DNA from: Candidatus Omnitrophota bacterium
GTDB lineage: Bacteria > Omnitrophota > Gorgyraeia > Gorgyraeales > Gorgyraeaceae
Assembly: GCA_042571405.1 (NCBI GenBank)
Contig: JBHPHU010000003.1
Location: 3,838-67,837, forward strand
Reading direction: 5' to 3'
DNA: 64,000 bases
The notes beneath the pieces were generated by a model. The model was not told where the DNA came from. It did not search any database and worked only from the letters and a program-made list of their open reading frames with translations. Positions 20,783 to 57,797 of this stretch are shown piece after piece. Positions within the stretch are counted from its first letter, which is position 1. Each line of letters opens with the position of its first letter. Made by a program: the position numbers and the translations under genes.

Positions 20783-22342
20783 TCATATCTCAGCCTTCTT
20801 TTGCGCTCGTTTTTTCCACGCTATTCTAACCATAATACCGAGTGTCAAAAACATACCTATAAGCATGAGCCGTATGCCTAATACATACGGCTTATCCGCT
20901 TCGCTTATACCCTTCATCATTATTGTAGGAATGCCATGCTGGTAAAACCAGAATCCAAGTATACAGAATAAAAATAAAGGCGTTACGTATTTTATTATAA
21001 ATTTATAGATTTCCGGTATCTTAAGATCTGCGCCGTGATGTATTTCTTCCCATGCCTTTTCTATGCCAAACACCCAGCCAAATAAGATTGTTTCAACTGT
21101 AGCGAAAAGCACGAGACAGAATGTGCCGCCCCAGAAATCCAACTCATTTACAGCTCCATGCTTTAAGAAGAGTATAGCTGGCTGGCAGAGAATGAAAGAC
21201 ACTATTCCAAAGATGATGACAGCTTTTTTCTTTGAGATATTGAATTCATCTTCGAGAAATGCGATGCTGGGCTGCGCAAGAGACACGGAAGAAGTGATCC
21301 CTGCCAGGAATAAAAGCGTAAACCACAGGCATCCAAAAAACGCGCTAAGGGCAATCTTCTGAAATATTAAAGGCATTGTCACAAATCCGAGATTAAACGC
21401 GCCGCCAGCTGCTATAGCCTGTATCTTGTGCGGGCCAAAAAATATGTACGCGGCCGGTATTATAATGGATGAACCAAGTATGATCTCGGCAAATTCATTT
21501 GTGCTTGCAGCTGTCAGGCCTGAGAGCGCGACATCATCTGTTTTCTTAAGGTAACTCGCGTAGGTCAATATTACGCCTATGCCAACGCTGAGCGTAAAAA
21601 ATATTTGTCCGGCTGCTGCGAGCCATACCTTTGCATTTTTTAAAGAGTTAAAATCAGGATTCCATAAAAACCCAAGACCATTTACTACATTCCATTCGGG
21701 TCTTGATGGATCAGGAGTACCTAAAGTTAAAACTCTTACAGCAATTATTATGCCGAATATCAAAAGTGCGGGCATTGCGATCTTGCAGAGTTTTTCAATG
21801 CCTCCGGAAATGCCTTTATAAATAATCAGTATGTTTATGATAAAGGTGATAAGGAAGAATAGGTATGCAGACTGCATATTTGAGAAAAATTGGTTTTTCT
21901 CAATGCCCTGGAAGCCTTTGAGGAGCGACATCATGCTTTCCTGGTCAGCAAGTTGCCCGTATTTCCCAACCGCTGAAAATACAGCATAGGCAAGCGTCCA
22001 TGACGCAATGTAGTTATAGTAGATGAAGATGACAAGCGGCCCAAATATACCTATTACTCCGAAGTACTTAATAAAGCGATTTTTCTCCCACATGGTATGA
22101 AAGATACCAGGCGCAGTGCCATGGCCGAACCCTCCGCCAAACCTCCCAATAGTCCATTCTATCCACATAAGGGGAATGCCGAGCAGGAGGAGCGAGATAA
22201 AATACGGTATCATAAACGCGCCGCCGCCATTCTGCGCCGCCTGCACAGGAAACCGCAAAAAGTTCCCCAGCCCCACAGCGCTCCCGGCAACAGCCATGAT
22301 AATACCAATCCTGGATTTCCAACTATCTCGCTTCTTTCTCAT
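20783..22342 (-). CDS. sodium-dependent transporter, neurotransmitter:sodium symporter (SNF/NSS) family
   Basis: 519 aa, 11-12 TM; N-terminal [28 protein letters not shown] signature of NSS family. Confidence 0.85.
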   Translation of the reverse strand: MRKKRDSWKSRIGIIMAVAGSAVGLGNFLRFPVQAAQNGGGAFMIPYFISLLLLGIPLMWIEWTIGRFGGGFGHGTAPGIFHTMWEKNRFIKYFGVIGIFGPLVIFIYYNYIASWTLAYAVFSAVGKYGQLADQESMMSLLKGFQGIEKNQFFSNMQSAYLFFLITFIINILIIYKGISGGIEKLCKIAMPALLIFGIIIAVRVLTLGTPDPSRPEWNVVNGLGFLWNPDFNSLKNAKVWLAAAGQIFFTLSVGIGVILTYASYLKKTDDVALSGLTAASTNEFAEIILGSSIIIPAAYIFFGPHKIQAIAAGGAFNLGFVTMPLIFQKIALSAFFGCLWFTLLFLAGITSSVSLAQPSIAFLEDEFNISKKKAVIIFGIVSFILCQPAILFLKHGAVNELDFWGGTFCLVLFATVETILFGWVFGIEKAWEEIHHGADLKIPEIYKFIIKYVTPLFLFCILGFWFYQHGIPTIMMKGISEADKPYVLGIRLMLIGMFLTLGIMVRIAWKKRAQKKAEI

Positions 22343-22485
22343 ATAGAGAAAATTATACTCAATATATATAGATATGTCAAATTAAGAGCAGGATGTTTAA
22401 TAACAATTTAACAATAATTAGAGCTTGAATAGATATGTTTTTGTGATAAACTGTTGTTAATGATTGTAAAACAAAGAGGATTAAT

Positions 22486-23129: not shown

Positions 23130-23330
23130 TCAGTGATTTTGACTCGGCAGAGGAAATGGTATCATAAACGCGCCGCCGCCATTCTGCGCCGCCTGCACAG
23201 GAAACCGCAAAAAGTTCCCCAGCCCCACAGCGCTCCCGGCAACAGCCATGATAATACCAATCCTGGATTTCCACGCATCCCGCTTTTTTCTCATATAGAA
23301 AAGTATACTTGGTGGGATTTTATGTGTCAA
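23130..23330 (-). pseudogene. duplicated 5' fragment of the SNF transporter gene (first ~44 codons + upstream sequence)
   Basis: ~140 bp (approx. 23158-23297) nearly identical to approx. 22205-22342; encodes [46 protein letters not shown] then diverges; flanks the HepT/MNT cassette. Confidence 0.7.
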
Positions 23331-38542: not shown

Positions 38543-41500
38543 GTGAACATGCAAGTAGAAGTAAAAGGCTCAAAAAAATTGAATATCTCTGAAAATTGTC
38601 TAAAGGTACTCGAGAGAAGATATCTGAAAAAAGACAAAGAGGGAAAAATTATAGAGACCCCGGAAGAGATGTTCGCCAGGGTCAGCCGCCACATAGCATC
38701 AGCAGATAAACTTTACGGCGCGACAGATGCTGATGTAAAAAAGACAGAAGATAATTTTTATAATATGATGAGTAGTTTTGAATTTATGCCGAATAGCCCC
38801 ACCCTAATGAACGCGGGAAAGGATCTTGCTCAGCTCTCAGCTTGCTTTGTTTTGCCCATAGAAGATTCCATGGAGTCTATATTTGAAGCAGTAAAGAATA
38901 CTGCTTTGATTCATCGGTCCGGTGGTGGAACAGGATTTAGCTTTTCAAGGCTGCGTCCTAAAAATAGCGTTGTTCGCTCTACCGGAGGCGTCTCAAGCGG
39001 TCCTGTTTCTTTTATGAAGGTATTTAATGCTGCAACTCAAGCTGTGAAGCAGGGAGGGTGTGTAGAAGAAAATACAATTATAGCTACAGAGAAAGGTCTT
39101 CTGCCGATCAAAGAACTTGGCAGCGCATCACCTGGATATTATGATAACCTATATCTCAAAGTTTGTAGTGATGATGGTTTAAAGATGGCAGATCAGTTTT
39201 ACAATAATGGTATTCAACCAGTGAAGACTATAATTACAAAGGAAGGTTATAAATTTACTGCAACCCTGAACCATAAGATCAGAGTTATTGACAGTGAAGG
39301 TAACTATGTATGGAGAGAATTAAAGGATGTAGAAGAGGGCGATTGGGTTGCTTTACAGATGGATACATTTACAGGGAAGAGACTTAAATTTGAGAAATTT
39401 ATCAGAGATTTTCATTTTAATGCTAAAACGTGTAGTTTGCCTTCTGAGATGGATATGGGTTTAGCGGAATTGATTGGTTACTACATAGGAGATGGCTGTT
39501 TCCATAAAGGAAAACTAATGTTGGCAGTCCCTCATGATTGTTTAGAGCTTAAGGACTATTTTGACAATCTCGTTAATAGAATCTTTAATATTAACAGTCG
39601 AGTCGAACAAAAAATAGATGATAAAAGCATTAATTTGATCTACCACAGTCAGATGCTTGTTGAATGGCTGAAATCTATAGGTGTTAATAAATTAGATTCA
39701 CTGCACGCATTTATACCGGAAGTGATTTTAAAAGGTAACAGAGAATGCGCTGAGGCTTTTGTGAAAGGTTTATTCGAGGCAGATGGGACGATTGATAAAC
39801 AAGGTTATAGCATTACTTTGACTTCTATTTCTCAAAAATTAATAGATCAATTACAAGTTCTATTGCTAAGTTTAGGCATACCTTCGCGTGTCCGGATTAA
39901 CGCAAATAGAGAATCTTCTCGTGGAAAAAATAAACTTTATATTTTAATGATTTCCACTCCAAAAGGATTGGAAACCTATAAAAAAAGAGTAGGTTTTTTA
40001 AGTAGAAAGAAGAAAGAAAGACTTAATCATATTATAAAAAGAGATGTTAGCTACAATGATATTATTCCAAATCAGTCAAAACAGTTTAGAGAATTTTATG
40101 AGAATCTGATATTAAAACCGAGAAATCAATTTTATAGGAAGGTTTACCATTATCTTGATGGTATAAGAGATGAAAGAAGTCTTACGCGTGCTAAGGCTGA
40201 AACTCTGGTGGAAGAATACGATTTTTTACAAGAGAGTTTTATTGAAGACATCCTTTCTAAAAATCAGTATTATGGCCGAGTAGAAAAGGTTAGCTTTTCG
40301 CATACACGCACCTTAGATTTAGTCGTACCTGATGGGCATACATACATTGCCAATGGTTTTGTCAGTCATAATACTCGTCGTGGCGCAAACATGGGAATGT
40401 TGCGTGTCGACCACTCTGATATCTTGGAATTTATTAAATGTAAAGAAGATGACAAAGAGATAACCAACTTCAATATTTCTATTTCAATTACGGAAGATTT
40501 TATGAATCGTGTTATAGAAGATAAAGAGTATGATTTGATAGATCCTCATACAAAAAAGACTACAGGAACCCTGAAAGCCAAAGAGGTTTTTGAACTTATT
40601 GTTGAAAAGGCATGGAAGAACGGAGAACCCGGAATTATTTTTATTGACAGGATGAATAAATTTAACCCTACACCAAAGCTAGGGCAGTATGAGTCGACTA
40701 ACCCATGTGGGGAGCAAATTCTGCTACCTTTTGAAAGCTGTAACTTAGGTAGTATAAATCTCTCAAAAGTAGTAGTCGAGAAAAACGGAAACAGCCAAGT
40801 AGATTGGGAAAAATTAAAAACTTTGGTGCATCATGGTGTGCATTTTCTAGATAATGTAATCGACAAGAATAAGTTTCCTTTAAAGGAAATAGAAGAGATG
40901 ACCAAGAGGAATAGAAAGATTGGTCTTGGAGTAATGGGTTTGGCAGATATGTTGATCAAGCTCGAGATACCTTATAATAGTGATAAGGCAATAGAGTTAG
41001 CGGAAAAGGTCATGAGTTTTATAAGCGAAACAGCCATAGATAAATCTCGAGACTCAGTACGAACAAGAGGTTCGTTCCCTTCATTTAATGACAGTGTGTT
41101 TGCAGAGAAGGGCGAAGAGAAAATGCGGAATGCTACCTTGACAACTATTGCGCCCACAGGCACCATTTCAATTATATCCAATGCCTCGAGCGGCATAGAG
41201 CCTCTGTTTGCGATCTCGTATTGCAGGAATGTCATGGATAACGACAAGCTGATCGAGGTAAATCCATTATTCGAAGAGATCGCGAAAAAAGAAGGGTTTT
41301 ATTCCAGAAAGTTAATGGAAGAGATAGCTGATAAAGGTTCTGTGAGGGACATAAAAGAGGTGCCTGAAAAATACAGGAAGATATTTGTTACTTCGCACGA
41401 TATCGCGCCTATCTGGCACATAAGGATGCAGGCGGCATTCCAGAGGCATACAGACAACGCGGTATCAAAGACAGTAAATTTTCACAATGAAGCTTCCAGG

Positions 41501-42154
41501 GATGATGTGAAAGAGGTTTACATGCTTGCGTATAAATTGGGTTGCAAGGGTGTAACTATTTACAGGGATAAAAGCAGGGAGGAACAGGTGTTGAATATAA
41601 GCTCAAAAAAGACAAAAACAGAACCAGCCAAAGATACTGCTACAAAAGAGAAACACGTTGCGCCGCGTCCAAGACCTGCAGTGACAACAGGTACAACTAC
41701 AAAGGTCAATACAGGCTGTGGCAACCTTTATATTACTATAAACGTAGATGATAATGCCATGCCTTTTGAGGTATTTATCCAGATGGGAAAGGCAGGCGGC
41801 TGTGCCGCGAGTCAGCTTGAAGCAGTGGGAAGACTTGTGTCTCTGGCACTTCGTTCCGGTGTGGAAAATAAGAAGATCGTGTCCCAGCTAAGGGGTATAC
41901 GCTGCCCGTCACCGTCATGGGAAAAAGGCGGGAGGATCTTCTCATGCGCTGATGCTATTGCCAGGGTACTGGAACTTAGGCTGGGCAATGGAAAGATGCA
42001 TCACAAAGAAGAAGAACTGGAAAAACATTCTCCTCATACAATGATAGAAGATAAGCTGGGCAATGTCGTAGGCGTGTGCCCTGATTGCGGCGCCGCATTA
42101 CGCCATGAAGAGGGCTGTGTAGTCTGCCGCTCATGTGGTTATTCAAAGTGTTAA
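38543..42154 (+). CDS. nrdJ: adenosylcobalamin-dependent (class II) ribonucleotide reductase NrdJ, interrupted by a 438-aa LAGLIDADG intein; C-terminal Zn-ribbon
   Basis: Extein motifs [27 protein letters not shown]-terminal CPDCG...CVVCRSCG; extein 765 aa. Confidence 0.85.
39059..40372 (+). mobile_element. intein with LAGLIDADG homing-endonuclease domain inserted in nrdJ
   Basis: Begins Cys (..VKQGG|CVEENTII..), LAGLIDADG blocks [14 protein letters not shown] and [12 protein letters not shown], ends ...IANGFVSHN|T; flanking exteins reconstitute conserved RNR ...[13 protein letters not shown]. Confidence 0.8.
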
Positions 42155-42166
42155 ATTAGAAATGTC

Positions 42167-42210
42167 ATTCCCGCGAAAGCCAGCGGCCTTGCCGCTAGGC
42201 AGGCGGGAAT
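42167..42210 (+). terminator. long GC hairpin after nrdJ (ATTCCCGCGAAAGCCAGCGGC-CTT-GCCGCTAGGCAGGCGGGAAT)
   Basis: ~20-bp imperfect stem 13 nt after nrdJ stop; no strong T-run, followed by Family-B copy 3. Confidence 0.4.
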
Positions 42211-42231
42211 CTAAAACCATGGATTTTCTCT

Positions 42232-42301
42232 AATATTGTTCGAGCGAAGCCAAAATATCCTTCTCGACGTTGCTCGAAGAATATTTTGGCGAAGTCGAGA
42301 A
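42232..42301. repeat. Family-B foldback repeat, copy 3 (permuted arrangement)
   Basis: aatattgttcgagcg...ttctcgac...gctcgaagaatatt...gtcgagaa between nrdJ and dcd. Confidence 0.6.
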
Positions 42302-42311
42302 CTATAATCTT

Positions 42312-42857
42312 ATGTCAATTCAACCCGACAACTGGATCAAACGAATGGCTTTAGAATGCGACATGATAAAGCCATTCGAGCCTCAGCAGGTAAAAAATAA
42401 AAACATTTCCTACGGTCTTTCCAGCTTCGGCTATGACATAAGGATCGCTGACGAATTCAAGATTTTTAAGGGCAAAACCACGCTTGATCCAAAAAAAGTA
42501 TCTCCTGACCTATTCGAAGATTTTAAAGGCCCTGTCTGTATTATCCCGCCAACTTCTTTTGTCTTAGCGCGTTCCCTTGAATATTTCAAAATCCCAAGAA
42601 ACGTCCTTGTGCTCTCTACAGGCAAAAGCACCTATGCCAGGATCGGTGTAATAGTAAACATAACCCCATTAGAGCCGGAATGGGAAGGTTACATAACAAT
42701 AGCAATAAGCAACACTTCCTCAAACCCCGCAAAACTTTACTCAAACGAAGGCATTGCCCAGGCAGTCTTCTTCGAGTCAGCCGAAACATGCCAAACCAGC
42801 TACGCAGACCGAAAAGGCAGCTACCAAGCCCAAAAAGAAATAACCCTGCCAAAGTAG
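42312..42857 (+). CDS. dcd: dCTP deaminase
   Basis: [15 protein letters not shown]...[16 protein letters not shown]... typical Dcd; ORF-track start 42270 lies in the repeat. Confidence 0.85.
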
Positions 42858-42871
42858 TAGACCACTATTAG

Positions 42872-42995
42872 TACCCTATAGGGTATGATTACTATATTTT
42901 TATACCCTAACTGGTAGTATATTTTTTAAATAATACCTTATAGGGTATAAAATTAATAAAAAAATCTTGAAATTATACCCGATATGTGATATACT
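42872..42995. promoter_or_regulatory. hipBST control region: three TACCC-N4-GGGTA palindromes (42872-42885 perfect, 42903-42916, 42934-42947) plus half-site in promoter TTGAAA-17-TATACT (42967-42995)
   Basis: Perfect 14-bp palindrome TACCCTATAGGGTA and two variants; analogous to HipB operators (TATCC-N8-GGATA in E. coli). Confidence 0.55.
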
Positions 42996-43004
42996 TAAAT
43001 TGCC

Positions 43005-43223
43005 ATGAAACAAGATAAGTTACAACAAAACATGATGAATATTTCTTTTCAAATAAAAACTTTGCGGAAGAAAAATGATTTAACACAGATCGAGTTTGCC
43101 AGACGGGCAGGAGTTGGTCTACGTTTTTTAAGAGAGCTTGAACGTGGTAAGACAACAGTAAGAATGGACAAGCTTATGCAAGTTTTGGATTTTCTGGGGT
43201 ATCATCTGGAATTGAAAAGGTGA
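43005..43223 (+). CDS. hipB: HipB-like XRE-family HTH antitoxin/repressor
   Basis: 72 aa; LTQIEFARRAGVGLRFLRELERGKTTVRMDKLMQVLDFLG Cro/C1-type HTH. Confidence 0.7.
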   Translation: MKQDKLQQNMMNISFQIKTLRKKNDLTQIEFARRAGVGLRFLRELERGKTTVRMDKLMQVLDFLGYHLELKR

Positions 43224-43229
43224 TTTTCT

Positions 43230-43553
43230 ATGGATGCATTAAGAAAAGCGCAGGTCTTTTATAAAAATGAATTAGCAGGGAGCATTACAGAAACTCAAAA
43301 CGGCTATACCTTCCAATATGACCATGAATTTTTAAAGAAAAATATTCCGATTTCTATATCGTTACTTCCCAGAGAAGAGCCTTATCATTCAAACGAATTA
43401 TTCCCTTTCTTTAAAGGGCTTCTTCCTGAAGGATGGTATTTGAGTATCGTGAGTGCGACGCAAAAGGTCGACAATAAAGATTATTTTGGTTTATTATTGG
43501 CAAGTGCAAGCAGTGATACCATCGGCGCGGTTACTGTAATAAAAGTGGAATAA
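43230..43553 (+). CDS. hipS: HipS-like protein (stand-alone HipA N-terminal subdomain)
   Basis: 107 aa; corresponds to HipA N-terminal domain encoded as separate gene, as in HipBST systems; FKGLLPEGW motif. Confidence 0.6.
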   Translation: MDALRKAQVFYKNELAGSITETQNGYTFQYDHEFLKKNIPISISLLPREEPYHSNELFPFFKGLLPEGWYLSIVSATQKVDNKDYFGLLLASASSDTIGAVTVIKVE

Positions 43554-43558
43554 TAAAA

Positions 43559-44422
43559 ATGAGTGAGCAATTTCTTAAAAAGATGTTTAATTCTACCAAA
43601 TGGCCGGTCATAAATTTTGACTTAAGAGAGATATCCCAGGAGGCACAGAAGCTGAGCGGTAAACTTTCCATTTCCGGAGTTCAGCCTAAGCTGTCCGTTA
43701 AGTTGGATAAGAAACAAAATATGTTAATCTCTGTGGCTGAAGGCGGGGAATATATTTTAAAACCGCAAACCCCTACTTTTCCTGATATCCCGGAAAACGA
43801 ACAATGTTGTATGGATATTGCCGAAGAATTAGATATAGATGTTCCGCTTCATTGTTTGATTCCTTTAAAAGATAAGAGTTTTGCTTATGTGGTCAAAAGA
43901 TTTGACCGGGAAAAAAGTGTGAAAATTCACCAGGAAGATTTTACGCAAATTCTTGAACAAGTAGATAAATATAAGGGATCGGTAGAACAAATAGGCCGAA
44001 GACTGAAAGAAATATCTTCAGCGCCGGGTTATGATGTTCAATTATTTTTTGAACGGGTTGTTCTTAGCTTTATTCTTGGCAATGGCGATGCTCATTTAAA
44101 AAATTATTCCATTTCTTATAGAGATAAAGATGATATTCGTTTGACACCCGCTTATGATATTGTATGTTCAAAATTGGTTATTCTCGACGAAGAAGACTCA
44201 GCCATAACTATTAATGGGAAAAAGAATAGATTAGAGCGAGAGGATTTCGATGAATTGGCTGAATATTTAAATATCCCTATAAAAGTTCGGTACGAAAAAT
44301 TTAGAAAGAAGTTTGACCTCATCAGAAAAATCATAAAGATTTCCAATATCGACAAGAAAAAACAACAGCAATTTCTTGAAATAATAAAAGAGAGAGTAAG
44401 CCGTTTAAGATTACCAGAATAA
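43559..44422 (+). CDS. hipT: HipT-like HipA-family Ser/Thr kinase toxin (kinase core)
   Basis: 287 aa; Gly-rich loop SISGVQPKLSV and catalytic GNGDAHLKNYS (DxHxKN) motifs of HipA kinases. Confidence 0.7.
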   Translation: MSEQFLKKMFNSTKWPVINFDLREISQEAQKLSGKLSISGVQPKLSVKLDKKQNMLISVAEGGEYILKPQTPTFPDIPENEQCCMDIAEELDIDVPLHCLIPLKDKSFAYVVKRFDREKSVKIHQEDFTQILEQVDKYKGSVEQIGRRLKEISSAPGYDVQLFFERVVLSFILGNGDAHLKNYSISYRDKDDIRLTPAYDIVCSKLVILDEEDSAITINGKKNRLEREDFDELAEYLNIPIKVRYEKFRKKFDLIRKIIKISNIDKKKQQQFLEIIKERVSRLRLPE

Positions 44423-44544
44423 GACCAAACAGAAATAACCCTGCCGAAGTAAAATAATCCAGCATGGCTTGACAAATCACCTTTTTTAGTATAAACTAGA
44501 TTAGTCTAAAATAGATTTTACTAATTATAAGGAGGGCATGGAAA

Positions 44545-54423: not shown

Positions 54424-56325
54424 ATGCAAAAAAGATTTATTAAGCTCATATCATTTGTTACGATAGTGTTTTTATATATTACTGCAGCATATCCTGCCGA
54501 GACTGAAAAATTTCCAAATATACATAAGTTAAGGCCAGCGATAGGTGGATATGAAGACATAGAGAGTCTTTATTATTCTAGTTTCAGGAAAGATCTTATC
54601 AATGGTAAGACTTTTCGCATATTTGAAGTATTTGAGACAAAATCAGGCAACCTTACCAAAGATACAGCAGTAAAATTAATTGATACGGCGCATAAATTAT
54701 ATCTTTCGCGTAGAAAGGATTTAAGAGGAAAAACAGAATTTAAGGACCTATTGGAAAAAATGGAATATATATTGCATAGCTTTATATATGGGGCCATTGC
54801 TTATGAGTTAAATCAGCGCCCTGAAGGAAATAAGGCGCTAAAAGAGATCTTTTTTTTAACTGAAAAAAGGTTAGCAGAGCCTATAATAAAAGAATATTTT
54901 GATGAATTAGATAGCATCCCGAACGAAAAAGACAAGCCTGAAAAAATAATAGAGTATCTTATTGGTAATGACGAGTATAGCATTAAAGGGTTTTTTGAAA
55001 TAGCGCTCTTAAATGCAGAATTTGTTTCTAAGAATGCTATTGCAAATCTAGAGAGCATGCTGGGCAATGACAAGAAGAACGCAATTAATAAGACGGTGAA
55101 TTCTATCATTGAATCGGTAGAAGAGATTCAAGGTTTAGAAAAACTAGAGAGAGACTCTAAAATAACTATTCAAGACGACTTAAAGAATTTTGTGGATGAC
55201 GCTATATTAAATTTTAAGCAACTCAATCATGAAGAAGTATCTAAAGCTATTCTCAATATAGACAATAAACTTGCCAGTCGTGACTTAACAGGAGACTTTC
55301 GATATTCAGATCTATATGATGAAAAGAACACATCTCTTTCATTTTTCAGATTATTGCCTGCGTTGGCGGCAGAGGCATATATAATAGATTCAACTGATAA
55401 TGAATATATAGAGTTCTTATCTGTCTTAGAAAATTCAGGCATGAAAGAACGCTACAGGAACAAGGCATTGGAAGCCCTATTGGCTTTTCAGGCATTAAAG
55501 TTAAAACAGAACAATAAACCATGCGCAGCTGTTAGGATCAGGCTTGGGTTGGGAGAGTTATGGAGCTATCTTAACAACGGCTATGTTTATAATATCAGGC
55601 ATATACCCCCTTTGCCACCCATAGTCGAGAAATTAGATAAGTTTATAGAGAGACTTTCTGTTTTAAGAGAACTGAAAGAAATACGTGGAATACCTAATGG
55701 TGTTAAAAGCAAAAAACTCATATCAGGTTACGCGCGCAAGTTAAAAAACCTGGGCATAAATATAACAGAAATTTTATACAAGAACGAGAAACAGCTTATA
55801 AGTGAGAAAAGCAGGATATTGAAACAAGTCAATTTAATAAAATTGGAAATGATAAGTAATTTCCTGCAGGATAAGTACGTAGAGACTTTGCAGTCTATGA
55901 AAGAAATGACAGAGCTTGTTAAAGCAGACATAAAAGCTGCTATGTACGTAGCTACCCCTTCAGATATTAAAAAATTATTACCGGTCTTATTGGCCCAAAG
56001 CATTATAGTAAATTCAACAGTAAAGGAGTACCGGGATTTTGTAGATACTTTGAATGTTTTTGGATATTCTAAGAATGAGGCTATGGGGGAGTTGAGAAAA
56101 TTAGTGGTTACCCAGGCATTGAAGAGCAATAATCTTCTTACTGATCCTGCCGCCGAGTTTTTAAGAATTCCAGCAATAATGTTACGTGACCTTTTAGAGG
56201 ACGAATATATCTCTATAATCTCCAATATACCTATTTCACTGGATGCTCCAAGAATAGACTTTGAACAATTAAAGGCGCACAAGATAATAAGAAACAGTAA
56301 AAACTCTACTGCATATTTCCTTTGA
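54424..56325 (+). CDS. leader-cluster protein 5: hypothetical protein with N-terminal leader + KLRPAIGGY motif
   Basis: MQKRFIKLISFVTIVFLYITAAYPAETEKFPNIHKLRPAIGGYED...; otherwise alpha-helical, no recognised domain. Confidence 0.45.
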   Translation: MQKRFIKLISFVTIVFLYITAAYPAETEKFPNIHKLRPAIGGYEDIESLYYSSFRKDLINGKTFRIFEVFETKSGNLTKDTAVKLIDTAHKLYLSRRKDLRGKTEFKDLLEKMEYILHSFIYGAIAYELNQRPEGNKALKEIFFLTEKRLAEPIIKEYFDELDSIPNEKDKPEKIIEYLIGNDEYSIKGFFEIALLNAEFVSKNAIANLESMLGNDKKNAINKTVNSIIESVEEIQGLEKLERDSKITIQDDLKNFVDDAILNFKQLNHEEVSKAILNIDNKLASRDLTGDFRYSDLYDEKNTSLSFFRLLPALAAEAYIIDSTDNEYIEFLSVLENSGMKERYRNKALEALLAFQALKLKQNNKPCAAVRIRLGLGELWSYLNNGYVYNIRHIPPLPPIVEKLDKFIERLSVLRELKEIRGIPNGVKSKKLISGYARKLKNLGINITEILYKNEKQLISEKSRILKQVNLIKLEMISNFLQDKYVETLQSMKEMTELVKADIKAAMYVATPSDIKKLLPVLLAQSIIVNSTVKEYRDFVDTLNVFGYSKNEAMGELRKLVVTQALKSNNLLTDPAAEFLRIPAIMLRDLLEDEYISIISNIPISLDAPRIDFEQLKAHKIIRNSKNSTAYFL

Positions 56326-56374
56326 TTTTTCAGAGGGATTAGGGTATATTGGGTCTGAGACAGGAGAGAGAAGC

Positions 56375-56869
56375 GTGTTTTACGAAGAGGTTTTTAGAGA
56401 GTTGAATAGAAATAGGGTGAGGTATGTTGTGGCCGGAGGTGTTGCTGTAAATCTTCATGGCGTGCCTCGGGTTACAGGGGATTTGGATCTGCTGATACAT
56501 CTGGACGAGAAGAATGTTTCTAAATTTTCCAAAACAATGAAAACGTTAGGATATAAACCTAAGGCTCCAGTCAGTATAGAAGATTTTGGTATAATAGAAA
56601 ATAGGAAAAAATGGATTGAAGAGAAAGACATGAAGGTGTTTTCTTTGTGTAATATAAAGATGCCCTATATCATAATAGATATTTTTGTTGAAAACCCTAT
56701 AGAGTTTAAGAAATTATATGATAATAGGATTAATATTTCTGTGGGTGAATTTAAGATTCCTATTGTTTCAATTGAGCATCTTATTAAGTTAAAAAAGATA
56801 GCCGGGCGTAAGCAGGATCTTTCAGATATTGTGTCTTTGAGAAGATTGAAGGAGCTGAGAAAGAGATGA
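56375..56869 (+). CDS. Pol-beta-superfamily nucleotidyltransferase (possible TA/abortive-infection-type NTase)
   Basis: YVVAGGVAVNLHGVPRVTGDLDLLI (GG...hG..R.T.DxD) NTase motif; C-terminal KLKKIAGRKQDLSDIVSL (RxKDxxD). Confidence 0.55.
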   Translation: MFYEEVFRELNRNRVRYVVAGGVAVNLHGVPRVTGDLDLLIHLDEKNVSKFSKTMKTLGYKPKAPVSIEDFGIIENRKKWIEEKDMKVFSLCNIKMPYIIIDIFVENPIEFKKLYDNRINISVGEFKIPIVSIEHLIKLKKIAGRKQDLSDIVSLRRLKELRKR

Positions 56870-57045
56870 GCGGTACAAGAAAAGGATTTAGTTATTATCT
56901 GGAAGATGATAAGATTATAGAATACCTGAAATTGCCACCGCGTGTTCGTTTAGAATGGTTAGAAGAAATATTTGAATTTAACCGTAAGGCACTAAAGGGA
57001 AAAAGAAAGAAAATCTGGCAGGCATTAAGGATGGGAGAGGTATGA
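56866..57045 (+). CDS. 59-aa ORF overlapping NTase stop and gpmA start (possible small partner protein; below ORF-track cut-off)
   Basis: ATGA overlap with NTase gene; [59 protein letters not shown]. Confidence 0.3.
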
Positions 57046-57797
57046 TGGAAAATATAAAATTAGTTCTGTTGCGTCACGGAGAAAGCACTTGGAATAAGGA
57101 AAATAAATTTACCGGGTGGACTGATGTGGATCTGTCAGAGAAAGGTATTGAGGAGGCCAAGGAGTCTGGCCGGGTTTTGAAAAAAGAAGGCTATGTGTTT
57201 GATGTCGCGTTTACGTCTGTGCTTAAAAGGGCCATAAGGACTTTGTGGTTTGCGTTGGATGAGATGGATCTTATGTGGATCCCTGTTTATCGTTCGTGGC
57301 GGCTTAATGAGAGGCATTATGGCGCGCTTCAAGGACTGAATAAATCAGAGACAGCCAAGAAATTCGGAGACGATCAGGTGCTTATCTGGCGTAGAAGTTA
57401 TGACATTCCTCCTGATGCATTGAAAAAAGATGATCCCAGGTATCCTGGTAATGAGCCTAGATATAAAGATCTGGATATAAAAGATGTTCCTTTAACAGAG
57501 TGTTTAAAAGATACAGTAGAGAGATTTCTGCCGTATTGGAACGAGACTATCGCGCCCACCATAAAGTCCGGCAAAAAGGTCCTTGTGGCTGCTCATGGAA
57601 ATAGCTTGAGGGCATTGGTAAAACATTTAGACAAGGTATCAGATAAGGATATAGTGAGTTTAAATATCCCTACAGGCATACCTTTAGTATATGAACTCAA
57701 TCCGGACTTGACCCCCATAAAACATTATTATCTCGGAGACCCTGATAAGATAAAAAAGGCCATGTCATCCGTGGCTAACCAGGGCAAATCCAAGTGA
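57042..57797 (+). CDS. gpmA: 2,3-bisphosphoglycerate-dependent phosphoglycerate mutase
   Basis: [29 protein letters not shown] (RHGE catalytic His motif), ...[10 protein letters not shown] second His motif. Confidence 0.95.

What the first reader, a model, noticed from the sequence alone, without database searches (positions are those of the whole stretch)
42872..44422. Tripartite HipBST-type kinase toxin-antitoxin module with a three-operator control region
Three genes in HipBST order: HTH (72 aa), HipA-N-terminal-subdomain-only (107 aa) and HipA kinase core (287 aa, with SISGVQPK Gly-loop and GNGDAHLKNYS catalytic loop). The module is preceded by three TACCC-N4-GGGTA palindromes (one perfect) and one half-site inside the -35/-10 spacer, an autoregulatory layout analogous to hipBA. 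It sits between dcd and a DUF234 ATPase and is bracketed by B-family repeats, so it is probably part of an accessory islet.
Basis: partly seen in the sequence, partly recalled or inferred. Interest (0 to 1): 0.55.

Follow-up and report, generated by a model that had tools for sequence, protein, structure and literature searches.

The report
HipBST kinase toxin-antitoxin cassette, Omnitrophota
This is an ordinary but intact three-gene HipBST kinase toxin-antitoxin module in an uncultivated Omnitrophota bacterium; its repressor-binding sites are well supported by comparison with about 60 related copies, and it sits as a self-contained 1.56-kb cassette inserted behind the dcd gene.

Summary
The observation and the interpretation both hold. 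Window 42872-44422 carries hipB (HTH, 72 aa), hipS (HipA N-subdomain-1 only, 107 aa) and hipT (HipA kinase core, 287 aa). Each protein's best solved relative is the matching Legionella HipB/HipS/HipT chain. The catalytic Asp (D177), Mg-binding Asp (D200), ATP-binding Lys (K44), the S37-I-S39 phospho-acceptor motif and the HipS Trp (W69) are all present. They are also conserved in about 66 orthologous loci, mostly binned as Candidatus Omnitrophota.

The three TACCC-N4-GGGTA palindromes sit 31 bp apart. The same motif is about 600-fold enriched upstream of orthologous hipB genes and recurs in Spirochaetales and Bacteroidota relatives. The "half-site" belongs to the most conserved element of the region (TTGaAATTATACCCgatAgGtGaTATAtT), which overlaps a promoter placed 9 nt before the ATG.

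DNA homology to other loci stops exactly at 42864-42872 and 44420-44432, between two copies of the dcd 3' end. A third copy follows the next gene, and a related contig lacks the whole 14-kb interval. So this is an accessory cassette.

NCBI already names the kinase a HipA-family toxin. Verdict: a new member of a known kind, of modest interest. The repeat-bounded cassette arrays are the only unexplained part.

The parts
42804..42858 (+). 3' end of dcd (encodes ...[17 protein letters not shown]). This is the left copy of the direct repeat that bounds the cassette.
   Evidence: the repeat finder D2/D3 and blastn. The dcd tail is natural, since orthologues end ...YADRKG.YQSQ..ITL...
42872..42885 (.). 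Operator O1, TACCCTATAGGGTA (perfect palindrome).
   Evidence: Sites at the same position (-133 from the ATG) occur in orthologous loci.
42903..42916 (.). Operator O2, TACCCTAACTGGTA (1 mismatch), 31 nt after O1.
   Evidence: 31-nt spacing is the commonest.
42934..42947 (.). Operator O3, TACCTTATAGGGTA (1 mismatch), 31 nt after O2.
42967..42995 (+). Promoter TTGAAA-17-TGaTATACT with an embedded degenerate fourth site O4 (TACCCGATATGTGA, 42976-42989, 42 nt after O3).
   Evidence: Promoter scan. The element is conserved in 62 loci as TTGaAATTATACCCgatAgGtGaTATAtT. The O3-to-O4 distance is 41/42 nt in 42 of 58 loci.
43005..43223 (+). hipB: HTH_3 repressor, 72 aa, with no C-terminal Trp. The ATG lies 9 nt after the -10 hexamer, so the mRNA is probably leaderless.
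   Evidence: Pfam HTH_3 1e-11; NCBIfam couple_hipB TIGR03070 1.2e-20, above its cutoff. HipB(Lp) 8ezt 3.6e-8. The ATG lies 6-9 nt after the -10 in 49 of 62 loci.
43230..43553 (+). hipS: HipA N-subdomain-1-like antitoxin, 107 aa, with E67 and W69 equivalent to EPEC HipS E63 and W65.
   Evidence: Pfam Couple_hipA 3.4e-24; PDB HipS hits. LPEGW is conserved in 63 of 69 orthologues.
43559..44422 (+). hipT: HipA-like Ser/Thr kinase core, 287 aa. Key residues are S37-I38-S39, K44, D177, H179, N182 and D200.
   Evidence: Pfam HipA_C 7.6e-47. HipT(Lp) 5e-43 over residues 22-284; EPEC HipT 1.3e-24. 34% identity to HipT(Lp). Invariant columns in 30 orthologues.
44421..44451 (+). Second copy of the dcd tail (31 nt, 90%), starting inside the hipT stop codon. 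This is the right boundary of the cassette.
   Evidence: DNA homology to 66 loci ends at 44420-44432.
44545..45930 (+). Neighbouring cassette: an ATPase_2/DUF234 ATPase with its own promoter and Shine-Dalgarno sequence. This is context, not part of the TA module.
   Evidence: Pfam; PADLOC PDC-S27 1.6e-44.
45930..45984 (+). Third, decayed copy of the dcd tail (55 nt, 84%; reads ADHKGSY*SQKETILPK*).

Best explanation
This is a tripartite HipBST-type type II toxin-antitoxin module, carried on a self-contained 1.56-kb cassette. Shown by sequence: HipT is a HipA-family Ser/Thr kinase core with all catalytic motifs intact. HipS is the detached HipA N-subdomain 1. HipB is a Cro/C1-type HTH protein. 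Inferred from the characterised E. coli O127 and Legionella systems: free HipT phosphorylates an essential translation factor and arrests growth. That factor is probably an aminoacyl-tRNA synthetase; TrpS is the E. coli precedent and the Legionella target is unknown. HipS binds HipT and holds the Gly-rich loop in an inactive conformation through the conserved Trp69. Autophosphorylation of S37/S39 modulates kinase activity. HipB does not neutralise the toxin. As a dimer, alone or within HipBST complexes, it binds the palindromes ATACCYTWWAGGGTAT. Three upstream sites are phased 31 bp apart (three helical turns, so all on one face of the DNA). A fourth, degenerate site lies inside the -35/-10 spacer, so occupancy there would occlude RNA polymerase and autorepress a probably leaderless hipBST transcript.
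For: Architecture and domains. All three proteins hit the corresponding solved HipBST chains best. HipA proper scores only ~1e-5. Catalytic and regulatory residues are present and conserved: SISGVQPK in 61 of 70, GNGDAHLKN in 55, PxYD in 70, HipS LPEGW in 63. The three-gene order is kept in 64 of 66 Omnitrophota-type loci; of the other two, L029's contig ends just upstream of hipT and L040 gave no HipB hit. The same order occurs on Runella and Bacteroides plasmids. Operators: 90 sites in 11.6 kb upstream of hipB against 6 in 467 kb elsewhere; shuffled upstream regions give a mean of 0.1; 31-nt spacing is dominant. The same motif at 40-42-nt phasing lies upstream of a Spirochaetales module (36-45% identical proteins) and of Bacteroidota plasmid modules. 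The HipB recognition helix GVGLRF.RELE.GK is at least 90% conserved and is retained (GLRF) in the Spirochaetales locus that keeps the motif. It is not retained in L069 or Legionella HipB, and L069 lacks the motif. The promoter/O4 element is conserved in 62 loci. Literature: HipB is necessary and sufficient to repress PhipBST in E. coli O127 (PMC10627512). HipB(Lp) shifts the 200-bp upstream fragment while HipS and HipT do not (bioRxiv 10.1101/2022.11.26.518041). HipS Trp65 and the S57-I-S59 roles are from PMC10627512.
Against: Nothing here is experimental; toxicity, neutralisation, DNA binding and target are all inferred. HipT is only 34% identical to HipT(Lp) and more distant from the E. coli O127 protein. 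The two characterised systems differ in target and in the role of autophosphorylation, so the substrate cannot be assigned. The AlphaFold model was unusable (pLDDT 44), so there is no structural confirmation beyond sequence. Consensus promoter hits are not enriched in the region overall (14 found against 12 expected); the promoter call rests on conservation. Eight of 58 orthologous loci have no site at 1 mismatch or fewer.
Confidence: 0.85

Rival explanations
1. The module's main biological role is anti-phage abortive infection, or stabilisation of a defence islet, rather than persistence-type growth control. The biochemistry would be the same HipBST biochemistry, triggered by infection.
For: HipS and HipT give weak hits to the PADLOC candidate system PDC-M03B/A (1e-5, 8e-5). 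The adjacent cassette is a strong PDC-S27 candidate (1.6e-44). Neighbours of orthologous modules include Fic/DOC, DUF4143 ATPases, AbiEii-like AAA_21, ResIII, DUF1016 and RhuM. Gerdes et al. (PMC8262856) raise phage defence for Hip kinases.
Against: The PADLOC hits are weak and partial. PDC systems are only candidates. No phage-sensing component is evident, and many neighbours are housekeeping genes. This reading does not exclude the TA reading.
Confidence: 0.25
2. The palindromes are not HipB operators. They would be a dcd terminator, a genome-wide REP-like repeat, or recombination ends of the cassette.
For: O1 coincides with the left limit of the conserved cassette (42864-42872), so a role at the cassette end cannot be excluded.
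Against: The sites travel with hipB and not with dcd; none of the 66 loci is next to dcd. They are about 600-fold depleted elsewhere in 467 kb of the same genomes. No terminator is predicted there. There is no matching inverted copy at the hipT end. Phasing relative to the promoter is conserved.
Confidence: 0.05
3. hipS and hipT are the two halves of a hipA gene broken by a recent nonsense or frameshift mutation, so this would be a decaying hipBA.
For: HipS plus HipT together correspond to HipA.
Against: The split, with the same boundaries and a separate start and Shine-Dalgarno-like AAGGTGA for hipS, is conserved in about 64 loci at 58-88% identity and in other phyla. The best matches are HipS/HipT, not HipA.
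Confidence: 0.02

Closest known systems
Legionella pneumophila HipBST (Lpg2368-2370; PDB 7vkb, 8ezr, 8ezt)
   Same: It has the same gene order and similar sizes (72/102/~310 aa against 72/107/287 aa). It is the best sequence match for HipT over the whole kinase including the C-terminal helices (5e-43), and also for HipB. HipB binds the upstream region while HipS neutralises HipT.
   Different: HipT identity is only 34%. Legionella has a single P-loop Ser (SVQ) and no Trp in the HipS PEG motif (PEGI); this module has S-I-S and PEGW. The HipB recognition helix differs (GKTVIYDIE against GLRFLRELE), so the operators probably differ. HipT(Lp) is also a Dot/Icm effector with an unknown target.
E. 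coli O127:H6 HipBST (PDB 7ab3-7ab5)
   Same: It is tripartite and shares the S57-I-S59 motif (here S37-I-S39), HipS E63/W65 (here E67/W69), D210/D233 (here D177/D200) and autorepression by HipB.
   Different: It is more distant (1.3e-24, alignment only to residue 203). Its HipB is 107 aa and its HipT 335 aa. Its genes overlap, whereas here they are separated by 5-6 nt. TrpS as target cannot be transferred.
E. coli K-12 / Shewanella HipBA
   Same: Both have a HipA-family kinase and an HTH HipB that binds several phased 5-bp-half-site palindromes overlapping the promoter. Shewanella has GTGTA-N6-TACAC x4 (PMC4150777). E. coli has TATCC-N8-GGATA x4 (from my own knowledge; not verified with the tools).
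   Different: There the kinase is one 440-aa protein, HipB is the antitoxin, and the E. coli HipB carries a C-terminal Trp. Here the spacer is 4 bp, HipB lacks that tail, and HipS is the presumed antitoxin.
Bacteroidota plasmid HTH / HipA-N / HipA-C triads (Runella pRUNSL02, B. finegoldii plasmid)
   Same: They share the architecture and the TACCC-N4-GGGTA-like sites at 40-42-nt phasing. HipT identity is 37-44%.
   Different: They are uncharacterised, plasmid-borne, and annotated only generically.

Membership tests
HipBST tripartite toxin-antitoxin | Three co-oriented, tightly linked genes in the order hipB-hipS-hipT. | tested here: met
   43005-43223, 43230-43553 and 43559-44422, with gaps of 6 and 5 nt. 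The order is conserved in orthologues.
HipBST tripartite toxin-antitoxin | HipT is a HipA-like kinase core lacking N-subdomain 1. | tested here: met
   Only Pfam HipA_C (7.6e-47) matches in a 287-aa protein. Best PDB hits are HipT(Lp) 5e-43 and EPEC HipT 1.3e-24, against HipA ~6e-6.
HipBST tripartite toxin-antitoxin | [quoted passage not shown] | tested here: met
   S37-I-S39-G-V-Q-P-K44, G174-N-G-D177-A-H-L-K-N182 and P197-A-Y-D200 align to EPEC S57/S59, D210 and D233. They are invariant in 30 orthologues. The activation loop was not examined separately.
HipBST tripartite toxin-antitoxin | HipS is a ~100-aa protein homologous to HipA N-subdomain 1. | tested here: met
   Couple_hipA 3.4e-24 and TIGR03071 8e-24. 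PDB HipS chains score 3e-16 to 3e-12; HipA residues 6-104 score 5e-5.
HipBST tripartite toxin-antitoxin | HipB is an HTH protein without the C-terminal Trp tail of HipBA HipB. | tested here: met
   HTH_3 and TIGR03070 hits. The protein ends ...GYHLELKR. The criterion is from PMC10627512.
HipBST tripartite toxin-antitoxin | HipT is toxic; HipS, not HipB, neutralises it. | not testable with these tools
   This needs expression assays. Only the HipS E67/W69 contact residues can be shown to be conserved.
HipBST tripartite toxin-antitoxin | HipB autoregulates the operon by binding its promoter region. | tested here: inconclusive
   In-silico support is strong: phased palindromes 600-fold enriched, cross-phylum conservation, and a site inside the promoter. 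There is no binding experiment.
HipBST tripartite toxin-antitoxin | The target is an aminoacyl-tRNA synthetase (TrpS in E. coli O127). | not testable with these tools
   The Legionella homologue does not use TrpS or GltX (bioRxiv 10.1101/2022.11.26.518041), so the target is open.
HipBA bipartite module | A single ~440-aa HipA with a fused N-subdomain 1; HipB is the antitoxin. | tested here: not met
   N-subdomain 1 is a separate ORF with its own stop and start, and this split is conserved across loci.
Integron gene cassette / attC array | Cassettes bounded by attC sites that fold as imperfect hairpins, with an IntI integrase nearby. | tested here: not met
   The bounding repeats are copies of the dcd tail and do not fold better than shuffles (z -0.9; the L153 repeats give z +1.0 to +1.8). 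No integrase domain was found in the Pfam-scanned ORFs on either side (34.8-38.3 kb and 42.3-61.9 kb).

The most novel reading that the evidence does not exclude
The HipBST unit (O1 through the hipT stop codon) and the neighbouring single-operon cassettes may be mobile cargo-only cassettes. They would insert one after another directly behind an anchor gene, each time regenerating a 30-200-bp copy of that gene's 3' end, and without any recombinase in cis. That would be an integron-like accretion system using unstructured gene-tail repeats instead of attC hairpins. The same pattern is seen at dcd here (3 copies), in L153 (65-nt repeat x3), in L154 (138-212-nt repeat x4), and around HipBST in L012 (tRNA-Met), L028, L059, L022 and L063.
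Probability: 0.1. Interest if true: 0.65.

Novelty: new member of a known kind. Interest (0 to 1): 0.3.

Why it matters
HipBST has been studied almost only in Gammaproteobacteria. This locus shows an abundant, well-conserved clade in Omnitrophota and neighbouring phyla, with more than 4,600 relatives at E <= 1e-10. It mixes E. coli-type regulatory residues (S-I-S, HipS Trp) with a Legionella-type kinase body. It also supplies what the experimental papers I read lack: an explicit, comparatively validated candidate operator (ATACCYTWWAGGGTAT, phased at 31/42 bp, with one copy inside the promoter). That operator could be tested directly by EMSA. Otherwise this is routine annotation. Its practical value is as a marker of a variable, defence-rich interval downstream of dcd.

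Tried and rejected
- AlphaFold2 of HipT with a 30-sequence alignment gave pLDDT 44 and pTM 0.41. The available homologues are all at least 74% identical, so the alignment lacks depth. The model was not used and no fold search was run.
- An exact-sequence lookup of HipT in the contig index found nothing, although an identical NCBI protein exists (P0001).
- An integron/attC explanation for the bounding repeats was rejected: no hairpin and no integrase.
- An archaeal origin was considered at first because of the 'archaeal ATPase' domain and the intein-containing RNR. It was rejected because all close relatives are bacterial MAGs.
- The motif TTCGAGCGAAGC near dcd is not a window-wide repeat family.
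- A paper search for the E. coli hipBA operator sequence found nothing, and the Schumacher 2015 paper is not held.
- The phage collection holds no meaningful relative.
- The generic sigma-70 and terminator scans are not enriched over shuffles, so the promoter call relies on cross-locus conservation instead.
Full report
**Observation.** hipB is at 43005-43223 (72 aa), hipS at 43230-43553 (107 aa) and hipT at 43559-44422 (287 aa). All are on the + strand, separated by 6 and 5 nt. The pattern TACCC-N4-GGGTA with at most one mismatch occurs three times in the whole 64-kb window, at 42872, 42903 and 42934, exactly 31 nt apart. The chance expectation is 0.74 per window, anywhere. A further TACCC at 42976 lies in the 17-nt spacer of TTGAAA (42967) / TGaTATACT (ending at 42995), 42 nt after the third site. 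dcd (Pfam DCD 7.5e-29) is upstream and an ATPase_2/DUF234 ATPase is downstream.

**Identity of the proteins.**
- HipB matches HTH_3 (1e-11) and exceeds the curated cutoff of NCBIfam TIGR03070 'couple_hipB' (1.2e-20).
- HipS matches Couple_hipA/TIGR03071 (about 1e-24) over its whole length.
- HipT matches HipA_C only (7.6e-47).
- Against all PDB sequences, each protein's best or near-best hit is the corresponding HipBST chain. HipT hits HipT(Lp) 8ezr/7vkb at 5e-43 over residues 22-284, then E. coli O127 HipT 7ab3-5 at 1.3e-24; HipA reaches only ~6e-6.
- HipS hits HI_0666 (7czo) at 3e-16, HipS(Lp) at 3e-13 and EPEC HipS at 2.5e-12.
- HipB hits HipB(Lp) 8ezt at 3.6e-8.
- HipT is 34% identical to HipT(Lp).

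**Residues.** In the HMMER alignments, S37-I38-S39 align with the E. coli O127 S57-I-S59 motif. The S57A and S59A crystal variants make the register unambiguous. K44 aligns with the Gly-loop lysine, D177 with the catalytic D210 and D200 with the Mg-binding D233. In HipS, E67 and W69 align with E63 and W65. According to PMC10627512, W65 is the residue wedged under the Gly-rich loop and is essential for antitoxin function, and S57/S59 are the autophosphorylation sites. HipB ends ...HLELKR, without the C-terminal Trp of HipBA-type HipB, as that paper describes for HipBST HipB. The module therefore combines an E. coli-type regulatory signature with an overall Legionella-like kinase. Legionella itself has SVQ and PEGI at these positions (bioRxiv 10.1101/2022.11.26.518041).

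**Source and relatives.** An identical protein exists in NCBI as 'type II toxin-antitoxin system HipA family toxin [Candidatus Omnitrophota bacterium]' on a 69-kb contig (P0001), so the kinase is already annotated. A scan of one genome per species found 66 loci with HipT at 58-85% identity, mostly Omnitrophota MAGs, plus three distant ones. HipB and HipS lie upstream in the same order in 64 of the 66; L029's contig ends just upstream of hipT, and L040 gave no HipB hit. Motifs are conserved: SISGVQPK 61/70, GNGDAHLKN 55/70, PxYD 70/70, HipS LPEGW 63/69 (invariant columns). Conjugative and other plasmids of Runella and Bacteroides carry the same HTH / HipA-N / HipA-C triad at 37-44% HipT identity. 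Phages do not.

**Control region.** Across 58 loci with 200 nt of upstream sequence, there are 90 sites (1 mismatch or fewer) in 11.6 kb. The remaining 467 kb of the same loci hold 6, and shuffled upstream regions give a mean of 0.1. Fifty of the 58 loci have at least one site. Sites cluster around -135, -105 and -75, and also at about -175 and -45. The commonest spacing is 31 nt, followed by 41/42, 52 and 62/73, all near multiples of a helical turn.

The 95-site matrix gives a-TACC(C/T)-T-W-W-A-GGGTA-t, a 16-bp palindrome, so the 'N4' is constrained. This stretch comprises the -35, a TACCC left half, a degenerate right half (also readable as ATACC-N8-GGTAT) and the -10. It lies 41/42 nt after the nearest upstream site in 42 of 58 loci. 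An ATG follows 6-9 nt after the -10 in 49 of 62 loci. That supports the 43005 start and suggests a leaderless hipB mRNA; there is no Shine-Dalgarno sequence here, although the neighbouring ATPase gene has AGGAGGG.

The motif survives in a Spirochaetales module with only 36-45% identical proteins (three sites 41 nt apart). It also occurs upstream of the Runella and B. finegoldii plasmid modules at 40-42 nt phasing. The HipB recognition helix GVGLRF.RELE.GK is at least 90% conserved. It is kept (GLRF) in the Spirochaetales locus but not in L069, which lacks the motif, nor in HipB(Lp).

The experimental papers show that HipB represses or binds the hipBST upstream region (PMC10627512; bioRxiv 10.1101/2022.11.26.518041), but in the text I searched they do not define an operator sequence. 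For comparison, Shewanella hipBA uses GTGTA-N6-TACAC four times (PMC4150777). E. coli hipBA uses TATCC-N8-GGATA four times; that figure is from my own knowledge and was not verified here.

**Mechanism (inferred).** HipB dimers occupy O1-O3 on one face of the DNA and O4 inside the promoter, shutting off transcription. HipS sequesters HipT through W69. Free HipT phosphorylates a translation factor. The target cannot be assigned, because HipT(Ec) hits TrpS while HipT(Lp) hits neither TrpS nor GltX.

**Accessory context.**
- DNA similarity between the window and the 66 loci never extends left of 42864 or right of 44432. Most alignments stop at 42866-42872 and at 44420-44423. This is exactly the interval between two copies of the dcd 3' end, 42826-42856 and 44421-44451 (90% identity); the second copy starts inside the hipT stop codon.
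- A third, decayed copy (45930-45984, 84%, reading ADHKGSY*SQKETILPK*) starts at the last base of the ATPase stop codon.
- None of the 66 loci is next to dcd or the ATPase, and their neighbours span 155 Pfam families.
- Metagenome relatives keep BatD / TPR-SH3 / RNR / dcd synteny. In L073 the gene homologous to window 57042-57797 (His_Phos_1, 79% identity) lies 2.3 kb after dcd, against 14.2 kb in the window. So 42858-57041 is a variable interval.
- That interval has slightly lower G+C. It contains a PADLOC PDC-S27 candidate (the ATPase, 1.6e-44) and a DUF2204/AbiEii-like nucleotidyltransferase. No integrase was detected.

**A side observation that remains unexplained.**
- HipBST is bracketed by direct repeats of its left flank in five further loci: L059 (170 nt), L022 (205 nt), L063 (55 nt), L028 (95 nt, an ABC-permease tail) and L012 (90 nt, the 3' half of tRNA-Met).
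- In the rescored set, 5 of 54 loci show such repeats, against 2 of 210 shifted controls.
- Relatives of the ATPase also sit in co-oriented arrays of small accessory operons separated by an array-specific repeat: L153 has a 65-nt repeat three times and L154 a 138-212-nt repeat four times.
- These repeats do not fold as hairpins, so they are not attC sites.
- Possible explanations are tandem site-specific integrations followed by decay, Campbell-type single crossovers of circles carrying a homologous gene tail, or something new. I could not distinguish between them.

**Verdict.** It is a new member of a known family that is already generically annotated. It comes with an unusually well-supported predicted operator architecture and clear evidence of being a discrete accessory cassette. 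Interest is modest.

Noticed in passing
window 42804-42858, 44421-44451, 45930-45984; L153 2805/4477/6010; L154 1122/2292/4065/5499; flanks of HipBST in L012, L022, L028, L059, L063: Co-oriented arrays of small accessory operons (TA, ATPases, nucleotidyltransferases) are separated by array-specific direct repeats. These repeats are often copies of the 3' end of the upstream anchor gene or tRNA. No integrase is nearby and the repeats have no hairpin structure. The insertion mechanism is unexplained.
   Followed up: partly
window 38543-42154 versus L073 3698-6004 and L071 2414-6004: The class II ribonucleotide reductase carries an intein (1203 aa). The L073 orthologue has none (768 aa). The L071 orthologue has an intein at a different, more N-terminal insertion point.
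   Followed up: no
window 42157-42322: A 166-nt insert between RNR and dcd is absent from L070, L071 and L073, where the two genes abut. It contains a hairpin, CATTCCCGCGAAAG...GGCGGGAATC. A similar 'gtcattcccgcgaaa...gcgggaatct' element lies upstream of HipBST in L035, which suggests a small dispersed repeat family.
   Followed up: no
window 44545-45930: The ATPase_2/DUF234 ATPase matches the PADLOC candidate defence family PDC-S27 (1.6e-44). It forms its own cassette with a promoter (TTGACA-17-TAAACT at 44469-44497) and a Shine-Dalgarno sequence. Relatives sit beside Fic, DUF4143, DUF1016/YhcG, SLFN_AlbA_2 and MNT/HEPN-like genes.
   Followed up: partly
window 46079-46114 and 49146-49181: A 36-nt promoter-like repeat (92% identical, containing TATACT) lies upstream of two ORFs of unknown function (46129-47661 and 49382-52741).
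   Followed up: no
window 46129-49043, 54424-56325, 56375-56869: Three large ORFs in the variable interval (510, 439 and 633 aa) have no Pfam or PADLOC match. A 164-aa DUF2204/AbiEii-like nucleotidyltransferase is also present, without an obvious partner gene.
   Followed up: no
window 22206-22350 and 23158-23302: A 145-nt direct repeat, 96% identical, with copies 952 nt apart. It was not examined.
   Followed up: no
L150 (Runella pRUNSL02) 800-895; L151 (B. finegoldii plasmid) 806-905: Bacteroidota plasmid HipBST-like triads carry TACCC-N4-GGGTA-like sites at 40-42-nt phasing. The operator type therefore spans at least three phyla.
   Followed up: partly
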